From: a virus
Taxonomy: Duplodnaviria > Caudoviricetes
Length of the DNA: 64,000 bases
Virus record (IMG/VR): IMGVR_UViG_3300027608_000010
Strand: one strand, 5' to 3'
Positions 35,504 through 39,711 of this stretch are shown in pieces; the stretch's first letter is position 1, and each line of letters opens with the position of its first letter. The position numbers and the translations under genes are program-made. The notes under the pieces are model-generated. The model did no database searches. It had not been told where the DNA came from and saw only the letters and a program-made list of their open reading frames with translations.

Positions 35504-36331
35504 ATGACTACAGACAATCCATTAAGACAGTTTTTTCGCCGTCCTGCACTATATTTAAGACTACCTAGCGGGGGAAAAGGATACACAAGTGATGCTATTG
35601 ATTTTCCGGATAATAGCGAATTACCTATCTATCCCATGACTGCAATAGATGAAATAACGAGTAGGACACCGGATGCATTGTACAACGGGGTAGCAATAAC
35701 TGAAATCATTAAGAGTTGTATCCCTGCAATTAAAGATCCATGGCAAGTATTAAATATTGACTTAGATCCTATATTGATCGCTATTCGTGTTGCTACTAAC
35801 GGACAACTTATGGAAATCGATTCAACTTGTCCAGAATGTAATGAGGATAGTAAATTTGACGTTGATCTAGTAGCAATGCTTTCTACCTTCACTTCCGGAG
35901 ACTACGATACCCCTGTAAAAATTGATAATTTGATTATAAAATTCAAACCATTATCTTATAAAGATGTAAACAAGATAAGTGAAAGACAATTTGAAGTACA
36001 AAAACAATTTATGCAGATTGAAGCAATTACTGATACCGTAGTGAAAGACGCCAAGACAAACGAAATAATAAAAATATTGAATCGGTTGACTGGAGAAATC
36101 ATAATAGATGCTATTGAATATATTAAAACACCTGAAGACACTGTGTTTGATAAGGACTTTATTAGAGAGTTCTTAGATAACTGTGATAAGAATACTTATA
36201 ACACGGTAAGAGATAAAAATATTAGCTTACGTAAAGAGAATGAGGTTAAACCATTAGATGTTACTTGTTCACATTGTAGCCATAAACATAAACAAACATT
36301 CAATATCAATATAACTAATTTTTTCGATTAA
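35504..36331 (+). CDS. gp26: Baseplate hub assembly / tail-assembly chaperone (T4 gp26-like)
   Basis: 275 aa. NPLRQFFRRPALYLRLPSGG, YPMTAIDEI, two CxxC pairs (CPEC, CSHC). Confidence 0.8.
   Translation: MTTDNPLRQFFRRPALYLRLPSGGKGYTSDAIDFPDNSELPIYPMTAIDEITSRTPDALYNGVAITEIIKSCIPAIKDPWQVLNIDLDPILIAIRVATNGQLMEIDSTCPECNEDSKFDVDLVAMLSTFTSGDYDTPVKIDNLIIKFKPLSYKDVNKISERQFEVQKQFMQIEAITDTVVKDAKTNEIIKILNRLTGEIIIDAIEYIKTPEDTVFDKDFIREFLDNCDKNTYNTVRDKNISLRKENEVKPLDVTCSHCSHKHKQTFNINITNFFD
36319..36325 (+). promoter_or_regulatory. Candidate -1 programmed frameshift heptamer T TTT TTC
   Basis: In-frame X XXY YYZ one codon before the stop; the -1 frame is open from 36319 into the next ORF. Confidence 0.6.
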
Positions 36332-36366
36332 GGCTTCTTCGTCTTAGTTCCGAAGCGATTAAGCAG

Positions 36367-36555
36367 ATGATAGATGACATGGAACGTCAGTGCTTAGATA
36401 TTAAAAAATCAGCATTGAAAATGTCTTGGTATATGAGAGGTGGGGCAACTTATGAAGATATACTTAATATGAGTGGACCTGAAAGAAATGCGATATCTAG
36501 TATTATTGAAAGTAATTTAGAAACTACAAAGAAAAGCAAATTACCATTCTTTTAA
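36367..36555 (+). CDS. gp51: gp51-like hub assembly protein; possibly expressed as a frameshift extension of gp26
   Basis: 62 aa from ATG, MSWYMRGGATYEDILNMS..ER motif; the frame is open upstream to 36319; no clear RBS. Confidence 0.65.
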   Translation: MIDDMERQCLDIKKSALKMSWYMRGGATYEDILNMSGPERNAISSIIESNLETTKKSKLPFF

Positions 36556-36559
36556 TCGG

Positions 36560-37033
36560 AAAGGTTCATTTATCATCTTGTTTTTTCTTTGGGGAGAAGA
36601 ACTTACGTTCTTCTAAGAACTCGTTATCACTCGTTCTTATTTTTACGGTTATATATTTTCTATAACTGTTTTTATCTAATAACTCATTGGATATATCATG
36701 CCGATTAGAAGCCATGGTAGTGCTATTTAAGCACTACCAATGGAATTATGCCATGACCGTCATCCTTGCCATTTTTACCCGAACAATCAACGTCTTTATG
36801 TTATTGTTCGCCACCGGTTGCCCTGTAGGGTTTGTTGGTCTGTAGTTGAATTACGCACTCTAGTGTTTCATTCTGCAACGCATGTTCTATAGCATCAAAA
36901 TGGAGTAGCTATAGACTCATTGAAGGTTCGCTTTGACGAGAGCCTTCTCGGTGTTCCATGTTATTGCTAACATGCATACTCCAGAATCTGACGGCACAGC
37001 ACAATCTGTACAATCTCAAGGAGGCCCGACAAC
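36560..37033 (-). ncRNA. Candidate structured non-coding RNA of unknown class
   Basis: About 480 nt with no credible ORF; many perfect hairpins, two with GNRA loops on the minus strand; a possible pseudoknot. Confidence 0.45.
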
Positions 37034-37606
37034 TCAGGCTACTAATTGTTCTTTATTATCTGATATTTTTAAATTTAAATTTGACGTGGTGTCTGGTGTT
37101 GTGCCTGAATATATTTTTACTAATTCTGCATTGTTTTTGAAAAAGCTAGAATGCTCTAAGATGATCCAATCACCGTGTGTTGGGCTACTATATAAAAGAC
37201 AAGTATCTGCCTTCCATGTTAGCTTCCCTTGTACAGCGACATATTGACCTTTACGATTAAACTTCATAAACAAAATATTTAAATCGTCAGTGTCTTCTAC
37301 ATCTAGTAACTGTGCTAGCCACGAATCAAGTTGTTTGCATTCACCTGTGAGTAACAGATGCCACGGGAAGTCCGCATAGAACTTACACTCTGCATTCATT
37401 TTGCTGAAACTCTGTCCTGGAACAATATCGCCCTTAAAAGAACGAATCTGTCCCTCATGTAAGAATTGAGTTCTGGCTTGATTCTTGCCACCCACATATG
37501 CACCAGACCCAGGAGCACGGATGAAACTTTCTCCGTATAACTCTGAGAGAAATTTTGCAACTTCTCTTTCGTATCCTGAACCTTTGTTTTTCTGTGGACT
37601 TGACAT
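37034..37606 (-). CDS. Holliday junction resolvase-like PD-(D/E)XK nuclease
   Basis: 190 aa. KNKGSGYEREVAKFL, GDI, ECK, LFMKFNRKG; clustered with gp46/gp47. Confidence 0.8.
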   Translation of the reverse strand: MSSPQKNKGSGYEREVAKFLSELYGESFIRAPGSGAYVGGKNQARTQFLHEGQIRSFKGDIVPGQSFSKMNAECKFYADFPWHLLLTGECKQLDSWLAQLLDVEDTDDLNILFMKFNRKGQYVAVQGKLTWKADTCLLYSSPTHGDWIILEHSSFFKNNAELVKIYSGTTPDTTSNLNLKISDNKEQLVA

Positions 37607-37638: not shown

Positions 37639-39711
37639 TTATTCTATATCAACTGCGGTGTTGTATGTAGTAAAACCATTTTCTTTTACAACTTTCAATA
37701 CACTAGGTACTCGTCCTGCTAATTCTTCTCTATGACTAACAAGCCAAATAGATTTTTGTCGCTTACGTGACATGTCCTTAAGAATAGCAATAGCGTTTTC
37801 AACACCCATTGTGTCTAGCCCACTGTCAATCAATTCATCAATGAACAATGTATTGATTGGTGAATATAAGTTCTCCCATACATCACGGAAAGCAAAACTC
37901 AATCCTAGTATCAATCGGTTACGCTCACCACGACTTAGATTATCAAAGTCAAGTTCACGACCCAACTCTGTAATCTCTACGGTTAAGTCATTCTGAAAGA
38001 TAACTTGATGAGGTAAACCAATCTTGTCTAAGTAATGCGTCAACCTACTATTCAAGTATGACAGATTTTGGTCAATGATTTTCTTACGAACAAAACTATC
38101 CTTACTAGTTAGAATATCTAATAAGAACTTCTGATGTTCCATAGTCTTTGTTAGTTTGTTGATTGCTTCAAAGTCAATTGATTGCAATGCATTAGATTCC
38201 ATCTCAATAACTTGTTCAGCATATGGGTCAGTATCAACTGCCTTTGTCTCAATTTGTTGCAACAGCCCGGCTACTTTACTGCGATGCTCAATCGCTTGCG
38301 ACTCAGTATCATAATGTGTGATTGGCATAGGACCTACCTCAACTACTGTAAGTTCTGACAGTTGTTCAGCATATGGATCAACTTCTTTTTCTTTTTCAAG
38401 TATCTTTGTGCGAATGTTTTCTGCATCACTGCCATGACGAATTGCTTCTGCTTCTGTCTTGTAATGTGTCTTGGGCTTGTCACCCAACTCAATAACTTTA
38501 TCAGTTTGTTCTTTTAATTGTCTTTCTAACGTGTTAGCATGAACGGTTGATTCAATCAACATCTGTTCTTTATCAGCTAAGACAGTAGAATGTTGTTCAT
38601 CGTGGAAATCTTGTCCACAAGCATAGCAAGTATGGTCGTGTAACGTAGCAACCTCTGTGGTTAGTTTAGCTACTAACTTTCTTTCTTTGTCTAAGTCTTT
38701 TGTTAACCTAGCAACTTCTTTATCTCGGTCAGTAAGTTCTTTTGATTTTGTATTGTATACAGTTAATGCTCTATGTGCCAGAATTTCTTCTACAATATCA
38801 ATATGACTCATCTTGATACCACTTGTTTCTAGGTCAAGAATGTCTTTGTCTTGCTTTTGTTTCCAAGCAACTTGTCTAGCCAACAATGCATTGTATGCAT
38901 CTTGTTGTTTCTTTTTGACATTGTAAATGGCTAAGTCTTTGTGTGCAAGCAATTCAACTTCAATGTCAATCTTAGCTAACTCATCATATTGTGCTGCTAG
39001 GTATGCTAAGTCACTTTCGTGTTTCTTTTGCCAAAGACCTTGCCTACGTTTAAAACTTTCGATTTGTTCTTTGACACGTTTATTAGCTTCTTCAATTGCT
39101 TTGACTTTAAATTCTTCACCTTGAATACTATCTTTGGTATCTTTTAATAGTATTTTGATAGTCTCAGCTTTTTCGGATAGTAATGTAATACCCAACAACT
39201 GTTCAATGATTTCACGTTGTTCGTTTGCTTTTAGTGCCAAGAACGGCTCACTGTATGTATTCAATGCTACAATATGGCGGAACATGCTACTAGACATACA
39301 TAGTATTTTCTCAATAGCTATTTGTGTTTCTTTGTTTTCGCCCTGTGCATCATCGTTAATTTTTTGTAAATCACTGTTCACATAGAATCGCAGTAAGTTT
39401 GGCTTGCGACCACGTTCAATCTTGTATTCAATACCGTTTACACTAAACTCAAGTGTAACTAACATGCCCTTAGCGTTGGTGCGATTAACTAAATTATCTT
39501 TTCTGATACTGTTAATGGGTACACCAAACAATGCATAACTTAGACCTTGAATAAGACTAGTTTTACCTGTTCCATTACGAGCACCGTCGCCACCCAAGTC
39601 TAAGTTCTCACCTAGAATAAGTGTTAAGTCTTGGCGGTTAAAGTCAACTGCTTGTGTGACTTGTCCGATTGATAGAAAGTTCCGTAATGTAATGTTCTTT
39701 AGTAAAATCAT
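37639..39711 (-). CDS. gp46: Recombination endonuclease ATPase subunit (T4 gp46/SbcC/Rad50-like)
   Basis: 690 aa. Walker A NGTGKT, CYAC zinc hook, LSRGE signature, Walker B FIDELID. Confidence 0.95.
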   Translation of the reverse strand: MILLKNITLRNFLSIGQVTQAVDFNRQDLTLILGENLDLGGDGARNGTGKTSLIQGLSYALFGVPINSIRKDNLVNRTNAKGMLVTLEFSVNGIEYKIERGRKPNLLRFYVNSDLQKINDDAQGENKETQIAIEKILCMSSSMFRHIVALNTYSEPFLALKANEQREIIEQLLGITLLSEKAETIKILLKDTKDSIQGEEFKVKAIEEANKRVKEQIESFKRRQGLWQKKHESDLAYLAAQYDELAKIDIEVELLAHKDLAIYNVKKKQQDAYNALLARQVAWKQKQDKDILDLETSGIKMSHIDIVEEILAHRALTVYNTKSKELTDRDKEVARLTKDLDKERKLVAKLTTEVATLHDHTCYACGQDFHDEQHSTVLADKEQMLIESTVHANTLERQLKEQTDKVIELGDKPKTHYKTEAEAIRHGSDAENIRTKILEKEKEVDPYAEQLSELTVVEVGPMPITHYDTESQAIEHRSKVAGLLQQIETKAVDTDPYAEQVIEMESNALQSIDFEAINKLTKTMEHQKFLLDILTSKDSFVRKKIIDQNLSYLNSRLTHYLDKIGLPHQVIFQNDLTVEITELGRELDFDNLSRGERNRLILGLSFAFRDVWENLYSPINTLFIDELIDSGLDTMGVENAIAILKDMSRKRQKSIWLVSHREELAGRVPSVLKVVKENGFTTYNTAVDIE

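What the first reader, a model, noticed from the sequence alone, without database searches (positions are those of the whole stretch)
36560..37033. Hairpin-dense ~480-nt non-coding region: possible undescribed phage ncRNA with GNRA loops and a pseudoknot
In a genome with very short intergenic gaps, about 480 nt between the convergent gp51-like and resolvase genes has no credible ORF. Much of it looks GC-richer than its flanks. Helices visible by eye: 36957-36974 CAUGUUA-GCAA-UAACAUG and 36596-36613 GAAGAAC-GUAA-GUUCUUC (both GNRA loops when read on the minus strand); 36715-36739, a 10-bp perfect stem TGGTAGTGCT/AGCACTACCA; 36781-36809 GAACAAT...ATTGTTC; 36922-36947 GAAGG...CCTTC; and 36886-36893/36908-36915, an 8-bp stem whose loop (TGGAGTA 36901-36907) is complementary to TACTCCA 36977-36983, a potential pseudoknot. 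GCATGTT/AACATGC offers an alternative pairing, so it might switch conformation. I see no tRNA, tmRNA, RNase P, group I P/Q/R/S or hammerhead core by eye. It would be co-transcribed downstream of the resolvase. Possible roles (inference only) are a ribozyme, a regulatory or sponge RNA, or a structured origin or recombination site next to the gp46/47/resolvase cluster.
Basis: partly seen in the sequence, partly recalled or inferred. Interest (0 to 1): 0.75.

Follow-up and report, generated by a model that had tools for sequence, protein, structure and literature searches.

The report
New large pseudoknotted jumbo-phage RNA
The gene-free gap behind the phage's resolvase-like nuclease gene encodes a roughly 345-440-base RNA that folds into an intricate, doubly knotted shape; it is conserved in hundreds of uncultured lake-water giant phages, matches no catalogued RNA family, and its job is still unknown.

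Summary
Window 36597-37039 (minus strand) is a conserved, non-coding, structured RNA gene. All 200 related IMG/VR contigs I fetched carry one copy, always between the PDDEXK resolvase-like gene and the convergent gp51/gp26-like genes. It is as conserved at DNA level as the nuclease gene, but shows no codon periodicity and no shared ORF.

G-U pairs place the RNA on the minus strand.

The proposed pseudoknot partner is not the supported one. The P6 loop pairs with a downstream purine-rich strand (PK1, 6 bp, fully compensatory). A second pseudoknot (PK2) and a lone pair staple that strand onto a four-way-junction domain.

Rfam 15, ARAGORN, 50,697 GenBank phages and 185,579 prokaryote genomes give no match. 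RNA-library contigs from several lake studies cover it and join it to the nuclease ORF.

Function is unknown. My best guess is a trans-acting RNA-protein scaffold or decoy; ribozyme and cis 3'-UTR roles are not excluded.

Earlier follow-ups of this scan found the same family in other genomes. Their Polynucleobacter-1 (RF01718) link is not seen here.

The parts
36597..37039 (-). Candidate full RNA (443 nt), from the P1 hairpin to the T2 hairpin
   Evidence: Extent of conservation and covarying helices in 127 unique relatives. Folding z-score -4.96. The ends have not been mapped experimentally.
36697..37039 (-). Conserved core (343 nt)
   Evidence: nhmmer hit 37042-36697 with E = 1e-101. The same core is found once in each of 200 loci. 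Variability by frame position is 0.67/0.69/0.67, i.e. no codon periodicity.
37024..37039 (-). P1 hairpin (6 bp, GUUG loop); overlaps the nuclease stop codon at 37034-37036
   Evidence: 5 of 6 pairs show two or more Watson-Crick types; 93% of cells paired against 40-47% with the partner slid. At least 74 independent Watson-Crick switches.
37015..37024 (-). Invariant CCUCCUUGAG box; its CUCC (37020-37023) is the 5' strand of P2
   Evidence: Invariant columns. C72U with G109A in L124/L163, and the shifted CUCUC/GAGAG register in L165/L199, are compensatory.
36977..36985 (-). Invariant UCUGGAGUA box; its GGAG (36979-36982) is the 3' strand of P2
   Evidence: 99.6% of P2 cells are paired.
36990..37015 (-). 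P2a/P2b hairpin enclosed by P2
   Evidence: The 78-101 pair is U-A or A-U. GUAC/GUGC is replaced by GCUU/AAGC in some relatives.
36957..36974 (-). P3 hairpin with a GNRA tetraloop (GCAA here); the stem sequence is free to vary
   Evidence: The loop is GCAA, GUAA, GCGA or GUGA across relatives. All 7 pairs covary; 65 switches counted over 5 of them. Five relatives carry a 45-60-nt insert here.
36949..36953 (-). P4 5' strand (CACCG); long-range helix closing the four-way junction
   Evidence: The closing pair is U-A, C-G or A-U (66, 43 and 12 sequences); 99% paired.
36812..36816 (-). P4 3' strand (CGGUG); the invariant GC hinge follows at 36810-36811
   Evidence: RNA-library contigs of three studies stop at 36812, 36817 and 36829; this is only a weak hint.
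36922..36947 (-). P5 hairpin (GAAGG/CCUUC plus an inner UCG/CGA)
   Evidence: 100% of cells paired; 6 of 8 pairs show two or more Watson-Crick types.
36883..36919 (-). P6 hairpin with a 14-nt loop
   Evidence: All 10 pairs covary, with at least 93 independent switches.
36898..36903 (-). PK1 5' strand, inside the P6 loop (CCAUUU here)
   Evidence: Pairs with 36769-36774. Variants seen: CCAUUU/AAAUGG, UUAUCU/AGAUAA, UUGAUU/AAUCAA, CUGUCU/AGACAG. 96.5% paired; at least 38 switches.
36769..36774 (-). PK1 3' strand (AAAUGG here), in the purine-rich staple
   Evidence: Same evidence as the PK1 5' strand.
36817..36879 (-). P7 (36874-36879 with 36817-36822), enclosing the P8 hairpin (36847-36873) and a conserved ACUACAG...UUACAG internal loop
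   Evidence: The P8 stem GAAU/AUUC appears as GAAG/CUUC or GAGG/CCUC in relatives.
36836..36839 (-). PK2 5' strand (ACCA here; UCCC in most relatives)
   Evidence: Pairs with 36777-36780. The 256-318 pair is U-A, C-G or A-U. 95.7% paired; at least 17 switches.
36744..36780 (-). Conserved purine-rich 'staple' strand: PK2 3' strand (36777-36780), PK1 3' strand, then GGAUGACGG and CAUGGC
   Evidence: Near-invariant columns. G314 covaries with C117 at the base of P3 (C-G 93, G-C 8). Column 340 (in the staple; U in this window, G in most relatives) and column 397 (downstream of P10) switch together, G.G in most relatives and U.U in others including this window.
36781..36809 (-). P9 hairpin
   Evidence: All 9 pairs covary; at least 107 switches; 144 G-U cells against 20 A-C cells.
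36712..36743 (-). P10: a 12-bp hairpin with one bulged U; stem sequence nearly invariant, loop free to vary
   Evidence: The only variants are A-U to G.U, and one U-A to G-C double change (L008). These changes are compatible with RNA on this strand only.
36617..36636 (-). T1 hairpin with tandem G.A pairs and a C(GNA)G tip. Read on the plus strand it is followed by a U-run, so it is the likely terminator of the gp26/gp51-like operon
   Evidence: All 5 pairs covary. The U-run is seen in the consensus.
36596..36613 (-). T2 hairpin; likely end of the minus-strand transcript
   Evidence: 99.7% paired; 5 of 6 pairs show two or more Watson-Crick types. The U-tail is weak, and the simple terminator scan did not call it.
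37034..37606 (-). Upstream gene: PDDEXK_15 / RusA-like Holliday-junction-resolvase-type nuclease (190 aa)
   Evidence: PF24608, E = 2e-23; phrog_244, E = 9e-18. It lies on the same strand directly upstream of the RNA wherever the locus reaches far enough upstream to include it.
36367..36555 (+). Convergent downstream gene: 62-aa gp51-position protein, which follows the gp26-like baseplate-hub gene at 35504-36331
   Evidence: PF12322, E = 2e-13, for the 275-aa protein. Synteny.

Best explanation
This is the gene for a new family of large, highly structured non-coding RNA of uncultured freshwater jumbo T4-like phages.

Shown:
- The stretch is conserved as RNA on the minus strand and is not coding.
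- It folds into a 5' domain, made of P1, the P2 clamp between two invariant boxes, a GNRA hairpin P3, and a four-way junction P4/P5/P6/P7 with P8.
- It also folds into a 3' domain, made of P9, a purine-rich strand and the invariant hairpin P10.
- The purine-rich strand folds back onto the 5' domain through two pseudoknots (PK1 to the P6 loop, PK2 to the P7 internal loop) and a lone C117-G314 pair. The result is one closed, knotted particle.
- RNA-library contigs cover it and join it to the nuclease ORF.

Inferred:
- It is transcribed by read-through from the nuclease gene and/or from an A/T-rich late-promoter-like box just upstream of P1.
- Transcription ends at T2.
- The folded RNA itself is the product.

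The mechanism I think most likely (about 40-45%) is a trans-acting ribonucleoprotein scaffold or decoy. A phage or host protein would read the sequence-invariant helices P2 and P10 and the invariant unpaired purines, while the covarying helices only build the frame. I put about 0.9 on the claim that it is a real, new structured RNA. The overall figure is lower because the mode of action is a guess.
For: Conservation:
- 68-96% nucleotide identity over 285-489 nt in 80 syntenic loci. Over the same loci the neighbouring proteins keep 38-79% (p275, p62) and 69-94% (nuclease) amino-acid identity.
- A context-free DNA pattern found more than 120 further contigs, and nhmmer finds exactly one copy in each of 200 loci.
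- There is one copy per genome in five 303-525-kb records that CheckV rates 86-100% complete.

Not coding:
- No shared ORF.
- No 3-base periodicity: 0.67/0.69/0.67, against 0.52/0.35/1.18 in the nuclease gene at equal mean variability.

Structure:
- RNAalifold predicts 84 pairs, 51 of them with compensatory double changes.
- On a model-built alignment of the four-way-junction domain, 98.4% of cells are paired against 85.2% in shuffles; 21 of 30 pairs change on both sides; the covariation score is 0.403 against 0.141 (0 of 500 shuffles reach it); slid partners give 29-39% pairing.
- The Fitch minimum is 571 independent Watson-Crick switches on the tree, including 38 in PK1 and 17 in PK2.
- Mutual information found PK1, PK2, 117-314 and a G.G/U.U pair without any input from a folding program.

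Strand: 568 G-U cells against 58 A-C cells in the correctly registered helices.

No known family: Rfam 15 found nothing at gathering score over the window, nothing credible at E up to 10 over the region (two chance-level matches only), and nothing at E up to 1 in 8 divergent relatives. No tRNA or tmRNA.

Transcript evidence: contigs from lake RNA libraries of three studies run from the nuclease ORF into the 5' domain, and one contig in a fourth study spans 36241-37178.

Promoter-like box: an ATAAAAAT-type motif lies within 32 nt upstream of P1 in 77 of 127 unique relatives.

Basis for preferring a scaffold or decoy role: the large bacterial and phage RNAs whose roles were later solved (6S, tmRNA, SRP RNA, RNase P RNA, OLE, and HEARO as the IscB guide) almost all work with proteins (established knowledge). 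In addition, P2 and P10 are conserved in sequence and not only in pairing.
Against: - No partner protein, binding site or phenotype is known. The scaffold or decoy role rests on prior expectation and on the conservation pattern only.
- The many invariant unpaired nucleotides and the two pseudoknots would suit a ribozyme or a ligand pocket just as well.
- The RNA-library data are assembled contigs. They are not strand-resolved and not proof of transcription, since DNA can be present in such libraries, and they give no true ends (caveats printed).
- The promoter-like box is absent in this window, where the nuclease ORF runs through that place. ATAAAAAT is only weakly enriched in the window (20 matches against 11.9 expected) and is not consistently placed before genes.
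- The fixed position right behind one gene also fits a cis role for that gene's mRNA.
Confidence: 0.55

Rival explanations
1. Cis-acting 3'-UTR module of the nuclease (gp47-gp46-resolvase) transcript. It would set, protect or regulate the mRNA 3' end at the border with the convergent late baseplate operon. It might also feed back on the toxic junction-cutting nuclease, for example with the RNA four-way junction acting as a Holliday-junction mimic.
For: - The RNA lies directly downstream of the nuclease gene, and here overlaps its stop codon, wherever the locus reaches far enough upstream to include that gene.
- When a 203-aa gene is inserted in some relatives, it goes between the RNA and p62, not between the nuclease gene and the RNA.
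- RNA-library contigs of three studies bridge the ORF and the 5' domain.
- P4/P5/P6/P7 form a four-way junction with invariant linkers of 0-3 nt.
- Earlier notes of this scan, which I did not check, report relatives of this RNA behind an unrelated GIY-YIG nuclease gene. That would fit a link to the locus or its function rather than to one protein fold.
Against: - A simple hairpin is enough to protect a 3' end. That role does not explain about 345 nt with two pseudoknots and an equally conserved 3' domain.
- Most relatives have a promoter-like box between the ORF and P1, which suggests independent transcription.
- Homologous nucleases of cultured jumbo phages (SCTP-2, PA5oct, Phosso; 39-43% identity) have no such downstream element.
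- All genes in these relatives are syntenic, so adjacency is weak evidence.
Confidence: 0.2
2. A new large self-cleaving or self-processing ribozyme. The two pseudoknots would assemble an active site, and the chain would be cut at the invariant hinge after P4 (between 36812 and 36811). This would make the 3' end of the nuclease transcript.
For: - The features are typical of catalytic RNAs: size, two pseudoknots, a GNRA loop, many invariant unpaired nucleotides, and an invariant GC dinucleotide exactly at the domain hinge.
- Weak hint only: RNA-library contigs of three studies end at 36812, 36817 and 36829, which is the 3' edge of P4/P7, while DNA runs hold the whole stretch.
Against: - The ends seen are contig ends, two of them with adapter-type loose ends. 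The tool itself rates such stops as at most a weak hint.
- In a fourth study one contig crosses the site.
- The 3' domain is also held in several RNA libraries.
- No known self-cleaving motif matches.
- All known self-cleavers are under about 200 nt. Other large orphan RNAs (GOLLD, ROOL, OLE, HEARO) did not turn out to be self-cleavers (established knowledge).
Confidence: 0.12
3. RNA partner of the upstream PD-(D/E)XK nuclease, as a guide, activator or inhibitor bound in a stable complex. This would be analogous to HEARO/IscB or the TnpB omega RNAs, which are encoded next to or overlapping their nuclease genes.
For: - The gene and the RNA abut and overlap, and they appear together on contigs.
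- Precedent: HEARO was first noticed as a large RNA next to a nuclease ORF (established knowledge).
Against: - Homologous nucleases of cultured phages lack the RNA.
- No hypervariable guide-like segment sits next to the conserved scaffold. The variable AU-rich linker lies between the core and the terminators, and I did not look for targets of it.
- There are no transposon ends.
- The protein is a small resolvase-type enzyme with a complete Pfam core.
Confidence: 0.08
4. A DNA-level element (replication origin, recombination or packaging site), a bidirectional terminator region only, or a degraded or small protein-coding gene.
For: - It sits next to the recombination genes.
- P10 is a perfect inverted repeat with an invariant sequence.
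- T1 and T2 do look like terminators for the two converging units.
Against: - G-U pairs outnumber A-C pairs about 10 to 1.
- The variants of P10 are A-U to G.U.
- There is long-range Watson-Crick covariation, including two pseudoknots.
- There is no ORF and no codon periodicity.
- Terminators account only for 36596-36636.
Confidence: 0.03

Closest known systems
GOLLD (RF01998) and ROOL (RF03087) large ornate RNAs
   Same: - Large, multi-helix, pseudoknotted RNAs with many conserved unpaired nucleotides.
- Often encoded by phages or prophages; GOLLD was first seen in lake metagenomes.
- No known function.
- Recent cryo-EM shows RNA-only multimers (bioRxiv 10.1101/2024.12.08.627333; I saw only its abstract).
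   Different: - No covariance-model match.
- This RNA is smaller: a core of about 345 nt, against roughly 580 and 800 nt (figures from memory).
- It holds a fixed position behind the resolvase-type gene of T4-like jumbo phages rather than sitting near tRNA genes.
- Multimerisation was not tested.
Polynucleobacter-1 RNA motif (RF01718; Weinberg et al. 2010, PMC2864571)
   Same: - It comes from fresh water and estuaries and has no known function (table).
- Earlier follow-ups of this scan report that, in some other genomes, related 'twin-box' phage RNAs begin with this motif (I did not check this).
   Different: RF01718 is not detected here:
- no match at E up to 10 in 36300-37300;
- no match at E up to 1 in 8 divergent relatives;
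- no match at E up to 1 in five whole genomes of 303-525 kb that carry this RNA.
HEARO/IscB and TnpB omega RNAs (nuclease-associated RNAs)
   Same: A structured RNA encoded directly beside, and partly overlapping, a small nuclease gene, and found on the same contigs as that gene.
   Different: - The nuclease fold differs (PD-(D/E)XK resolvase type).
- There is no mobile-element context and no recognisable guide segment.
- Homologues of the nuclease exist without the RNA.
Candidate structured RNAs of IMG/VR (Fremin et al. 2023, PMC10690425)
   Same: The same data source (IMG/VR intergenic regions) and a covariation-based approach. Individual hairpins of this RNA may be among its 8,495 unnamed candidates.
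   Different: Those candidates average 67 nt. The text does not describe a pseudoknotted RNA of about 345 nt behind a resolvase gene.

Membership tests
Any Rfam 15 family (4227 models) | Covariance-model score at or above the family's gathering threshold | tested here: not met
   0 matches over the whole window at gathering score. At E up to 10 over 36300-37300 there were only two chance-level matches, snR73 and ST7-OT3_3. 0 matches at E up to 1 in 8 divergent relatives.
Polynucleobacter-1 (RF01718) | Match to the 141-position model (gathering score 37 bits) | tested here: not met
   No match, and none at E up to 1 in five whole jumbo-phage genomes that carry this RNA.
tRNA / tmRNA | Cloverleaf, or tRNA-like domain plus tag reading frame | tested here: not met
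   ARAGORN found 0 genes in the window.
Group I / group II intron | Insertion in a host gene with flanking exons; match to the conserved catalytic core | tested here: not met
   The element lies between two convergent genes, with 32 nt between gp46 and the nuclease gene. There is no Rfam intron match.
Structured non-coding RNA (generic criteria) | Compensatory base-pair covariation above controls | tested here: met
   98.4% paired against 85.2% in shuffles; covariation score 0.403 against 0.141 (0 of 500 shuffles reach it); slid controls 29-39%. At least 571 independent Watson-Crick switches.
Structured non-coding RNA (generic criteria) | Absence of coding signal | tested here: met
   No conserved ORF. 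No 3-base periodicity, unlike the neighbouring gene.
Structured non-coding RNA (generic criteria) | A discrete transcript of the predicted strand with defined ends | tested here: inconclusive
   RNA-library contigs cover it and bridge it to the ORF, but they are contigs only: no strand, no true ends, and DNA carry-over is not excluded.
Nuclease guide RNA (omega-RNA-like) | Obligate co-occurrence with the nuclease family, and a variable guide segment next to the scaffold | tested here: not met
   Homologues at 39-43% identity in SCTP-2, PA5oct and Phosso have no downstream RNA. No guide-like segment was seen in the alignment.
Intrinsic terminator (for T1/T2 only) | G+C-rich hairpin followed by a U-run | tested here: inconclusive
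   Both hairpins covary. T1 is followed by a U-run on the plus strand, whereas T2 has only UUUAAA (UCCCC in this window) on the minus strand. The simple scan did not call either.
Self-cleaving ribozyme | Site-specific self-scission | not testable with these tools
   The only pointer is a weak hint from contig ends at 36812-36829.

The most novel reading that the evidence does not exclude
The RNA is a new class of large ribozyme. The two pseudoknots would assemble a catalytic core that cuts the chain at the invariant hinge just after P4 (36812/36811), so creating the 3' end of the resolvase transcript. An equally unconventional alternative is that its four-way junction acts as a Holliday-junction mimic that binds and restrains the toxic junction-cutting nuclease encoded just upstream.
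Probability: 0.12. Interest if true: 0.9.

Novelty: categorically new. Interest (0 to 1): 0.72.

Why it matters
Large RNAs with intricate, strongly conserved folds are rare. Nearly every one whose role was solved (RNase P RNA, tmRNA, 6S, and HEARO as the IscB guide) revealed new biology or a new tool.

This one has several useful properties:
- It has hundreds of natural variants.
- Two pseudoknots are proven by covariation, together with signs of tertiary contacts: a G.G/U.U pair and a three-column covariation.
- It occurs once per genome, at a fixed place, in giant lake phages.

It is therefore a well-defined target for structure determination, self-cleavage assays and partner hunting. It also shows that jumbo phages carry orphan RNA genes that standard annotation reports as empty gaps.

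If it proves to be catalytic or to control a junction-resolving nuclease, that would be a new mechanism. If not, it is still a new entry for the RNA family catalogues.

Tried and rejected
Searches that found nothing:
- blastn of 36400-37200 against 50,697 GenBank phage records: no match.
- The nearest held virus record, G001, is a 22-kb fragment without the locus. The window's own assembly is not held.
- A strict DNA pattern over 185,579 prokaryote genomes: 0 hits, so no host or prophage clue.
- nhmmer and the covariance model R1 on the resolvase loci of SCTP-2, PA5oct and Phosso: nothing.
- RF01718, suggested by earlier notes: nothing.

RNA-library results that I do not use as evidence:
- The lower or missing contig cover of 36483-36811 in runs X15, X17 and X18, and the depth contrast between contigs (about 107, 21 and 42 against about 5, 3 and 6). 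The tool states that contig depth cannot rank parts of a stretch and that an uncovered part proves nothing, so I keep this only as a weak hint.
- The second run search shows that the 3' domain is held in five RNA libraries at 55-75% of its words.
- A 22-nt loose end in X18 at 36817 matches nothing in the window or in the 203 loci. I treat it as a chimera.

Leads I checked and dropped:
- 'Twin boxes' from earlier notes. The only co-varying identical boxes here are the tips of T1 and T2, GA(A/G)CGAAG(U/C). They are identical in 46% of sequences and within one mismatch in 67%, which shared ancestry may explain. I do not build on it.
- The CCUCCUU box resembles the 3' end of 16S rRNA (from memory). 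However, it is paired to GGAG within the RNA, and Shine-Dalgarno use by this phage's genes is unremarkable. I dropped this as a mechanism.

Tools and papers not available:
- mafft-qinsi lacks a component it needs (MXSCARNA) in the Python box.
- The supplement of PMC10690425 is not held.
- One 2026 preprint could not be opened.

Not attempted: I did not try to fetch the marine, GIY-YIG-linked relatives that earlier notes mention. Pattern scans are capped at 120 rows, and the close family fills them.
Full report
**Setting.** The finding lies between two converging genes. On the plus strand, a gp26-like baseplate-hub gene (35504-36331; PF12322) is followed by a 62-aa gene (36367-36555). On the minus strand, a gp46/SbcC-like gene (37639-39711) is followed by a 190-aa PDDEXK_15 / RusA-like resolvase-type nuclease gene (37034-37606). 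The 478 nt in between hold no ORF of 60 aa or more that lies wholly inside the region. GC is modestly raised, at 0.43-0.45 against 0.27-0.34 in the immediate flanks.

**Known families.** Rfam 15 gives no match at gathering score anywhere in the window. At E up to 10 over the region it gives only two chance-level matches. ARAGORN finds no tRNA or tmRNA. blastn against 50,697 GenBank phage records finds nothing.

**Conservation.**
- Using the nuclease protein as bait, I fetched 80 IMG/VR loci.
- In all of them the gap is homologous to the window at 68-96% nucleotide identity over 285-489 nt.
- Over the same loci the neighbouring proteins keep 38-68% (gp26-like), 51-79% (62-aa protein) and 69-94% (nuclease) amino-acid identity.
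- No reading frame is open at the same place across relatives.
- An nhmmer profile of the core then found exactly one copy in each of the 200 loci held (E from 1e-110 to 1e-39).
- Wherever the locus is long enough, the order is the same: nuclease gene, then the element on the same strand, then the two convergent genes.
- Seven loci have an insert of about 570 nt, and in L078 it holds a 203-aa gene. The insert sits between the element and the 62-aa gene, so the element stays with the nuclease gene.
- Five records of 303-525 kb, rated 86-100% complete by CheckV, carry one copy each.
- A strict pattern found nothing in 185,579 prokaryote genomes.

**Not coding.** Column variability in the core shows no 3-base periodicity (means by frame position 0.67/0.69/0.67, with autocorrelation decaying smoothly). 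The nuclease gene, at the same overall variability, shows the codon pattern (0.52/0.35/1.18, lag-3 autocorrelation 0.36).

**Secondary structure.**
- RNAalifold on 57 unique sequences predicted 84 pairs, 51 of them with compensatory double changes.
- I then aligned 127 unique sequences and ranked all column pairs by corrected mutual information.
- The helices are given here in window coordinates on the minus strand:
  - P1, 37024-37039.
  - P2, CUCC 37020-37023 with GGAG 36979-36982. It encloses P2a/P2b.
  - P3, 36957-36974, with a GNRA loop in nearly all relatives.
  - P4, 36949-36953 with 36812-36816. It closes a four-way junction of P5, P6 and P7.
  - P5, 36922-36947.
  - P6, 36883-36919.
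  - P7, 36874-36879 with 36817-22. It contains P8.
  - P9, 36781-36809.
  - P10, 36712-36743, nearly invariant.
- After an AU-rich variable linker come two hairpins, T1 (36617-36636) and T2 (36596-36613).
- Per-helix pairing is 84-100%, against 6-72% when the 3' partner is slid by one or two columns (PK2, with its G-run strand, is the one exception). P8 and P10 were mis-registered in that run.
- On a tree of the sequences, the minimum number of independent switches from one Watson-Crick pair to another is 571. This includes 93 in P6 and 107 in P9.
- As a formal test I built a covariance model of the four-way-junction domain, re-aligned 96 sequences to it and counted pairs:
  - 98.4% of cells are paired, against 85.2% in shuffles.
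  - 21 of 30 pairs change on both sides.
  - The covariation score is 0.403 against 0.141, and 0 of 500 shuffles reach it.
  - Slid partners give 29-39% pairing.
- The window RNA folds at -128.6 kcal/mol, z = -4.96.

**Strand.** G-U cells outnumber A-C cells 568 to 58 in the correctly registered helices. The few variants of P10 are A-U to G.U. The RNA is therefore read on the minus strand, in the same sense as the nuclease gene.

**Pseudoknots and tertiary signals.** Mutual information found long-range pairs that no folding program was asked for.
- PK1 joins six loop nucleotides of P6 (36898-36903) to 36769-36774. Fully compensated variants include CCAUUU/AAAUGG (this window), UUAUCU/AGAUAA, UUGAUU/AAUCAA and CUGUCU/AGACAG. 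Pairing is 96.5%, with at least 38 independent switches.
- PK2 joins 36836-36839, in the P7 internal loop, to 36777-36780 (95.7% paired, at least 17 switches).
- C117, at the base of P3, covaries with G314, just before PK2 (C-G 93, G-C 8).
- Consensus columns 340 and 397 switch together between G.G and U.U.
- The closing position of P4 covaries with two partners at once (140 and 266, both with 283).
- Taken together, the purine-rich strand downstream of P9 is stapled across the 5' domain at three places.

- All six hairpins are confirmed.
- The proposed pseudoknot (P6 loop with UGGAGUA) is not the supported one:
  - GGAG pairs with the invariant CUCC. This P2 helix has two independent compensatory events: C-G to U-A in L124/L163, and a shifted CUCUC/GAGAG register in L165/L199.
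  - It is broken (C.A) in L124/L163, and changes at its U113 are never compensated.
  - An alternative conformer therefore cannot be excluded, but it has no positive support.
- The GCAUGUU/AACAUGC switch is not conserved. Only 43 of 127 sequences keep 6 of its 7 pairs, and C117 covaries with G314 instead.

**Transcription.**
- In 77 of 127 unique relatives, an ATAAAAAT-type box lies within 32 nt upstream of P1. It resembles the T4 late-promoter box (TATAAATA, from memory).
- In this window the nuclease ORF runs through that place, and the box is absent.
- ATAAAAAT is only weakly enriched in the window (20 matches against 11.9 expected).
- Lake metatranscriptome libraries hold the stretch.
- When four of these runs were laid on the sequence, contigs of three studies ran from the nuclease ORF into the 5' domain (36812-37178, 36829-37465 and 36817-37143). 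One contig of a fourth study spanned 36241-37178.
- These are assembled contigs. They show cover and linkage, not strand, ends or level, and DNA carry-over is not excluded.
- Three contigs stop at the 3' edge of P4/P7.

**Is it tied to the nuclease?** The closest cultured homologues of the nuclease are in Salicola phage SCTP-2, Pseudomonas phage PA5oct and Sinorhizobium phage Phosso (39-43% identity). In each, the gene is followed directly by another gene. Neither the nhmmer profile nor the covariance model finds the RNA there. The nuclease family therefore works without this RNA, which argues against an obligate guide or partner role.

**Earlier notes of this scan.** Look-ups show that follow-ups on other genomes reached the same core verdict: a new pseudoknotted RNA of about 350 nt in jumbo phages. 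They added three claims.
- *Some relatives begin with the Rfam motif Polynucleobacter-1.* I tested this here. RF01718 is absent from this window, from 8 divergent relatives and from five whole genomes that carry the RNA.
- *Marine relatives follow a GIY-YIG nuclease gene.* I could not test this.
- *Two 'twin boxes' change together.* The only such boxes here are the tips of T1 and T2, identical in 46% of sequences, which may reflect shared ancestry.

**Interpretation.** The evidence that this is a real, conserved, doubly pseudoknotted RNA gene of a family absent from Rfam is strong (about 0.9). Its mode of action is not shown. I rank the options as follows.
1. A trans-acting RNA-protein scaffold or decoy, read through the sequence-invariant P2, P10 and unpaired purines (about 0.4-0.45). 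This is favoured by what is known of other large RNAs and by the promoter-like box.
2. A cis-acting 3'-UTR module of the nuclease transcript, possibly a junction mimic (about 0.2).
3. A large self-processing ribozyme that cuts at the P4 hinge (about 0.12).
4. A bound partner of the nuclease (about 0.08).
5. A DNA-level site or a coding remnant (about 0.03).

The closest known things in character are the orphan ornate RNAs GOLLD and ROOL. The RNA is not a member of either family.

Noticed in passing
window 36311-36555: The gp26-like ORF and the 62-aa gp51-position ORF lie 35 nt apart on the same strand. Another first-reader note (e1-5402619) proposes a -1 frameshift that would fuse them. The two-ORF arrangement is conserved in all relatives.
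   Followed up: no
window 36566-36574 (minus strand): A conserved GAUAAAUGA box, TAUAAAUGA in several relatives, lies just after the stop codon of the 62-aa gene. It is T4-late-promoter-like and points antisense into that gene (columns 704-714). Its purpose is unknown.
   Followed up: no
window 36597-36636; alignment: T1 carries tandem G.A pairs flanking an inner R-C-GAA-G-Y mini-hairpin. T2 ends in the same tip. The two 7-nt tips are identical in 46% of relatives. These are possibly the 'twin boxes' of earlier notes.
   Followed up: partly
L078:5044-5655, and similar inserts in L080, L147, L187, L121, L122 and L171: Some relatives carry an extra stretch of about 570 nt between the RNA and the 62-aa gene. 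In L078 it holds a 203-aa gene of unknown function on the same strand as the 62-aa gene.
   Followed up: partly
L030, L038, L039, L042, L064 (columns 136-190): In five relatives the short GNRA hairpin P3 is replaced by a structured insert 45-60 nt longer. P3 is therefore a variable, expandable arm.
   Followed up: no
L203:1986-3001 (Sinorhizobium phage Phosso) and L202:1478-2142 (Pseudomonas phage PA5oct): Unannotated gaps of about 1 kb and 0.66 kb lie near the resolvase genes of these cultured jumbo phages. The RNA models built here do not match them. They were not examined further.
   Followed up: no
window 36827/36994 (table 5): One RNA-library contig (X16, depth 58) joins 36827 to 36994 and so skips 166 nt, from P3 through most of P7. 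It could be a misassembly, a deletion variant of a relative, or a reverse-transcriptase jump across the base of the folded domain.
   Followed up: no
consensus columns 149/399, 159/394, 168/390, 341/385: Several invariant 6-mers occur twice in the RNA: GGCAAU, AAAGCG, CUUCAA and CAUGGC. In each case one copy lies in the P5 region or the staple strand, and the other lies in or just after P10. Their meaning is unknown.
   Followed up: no
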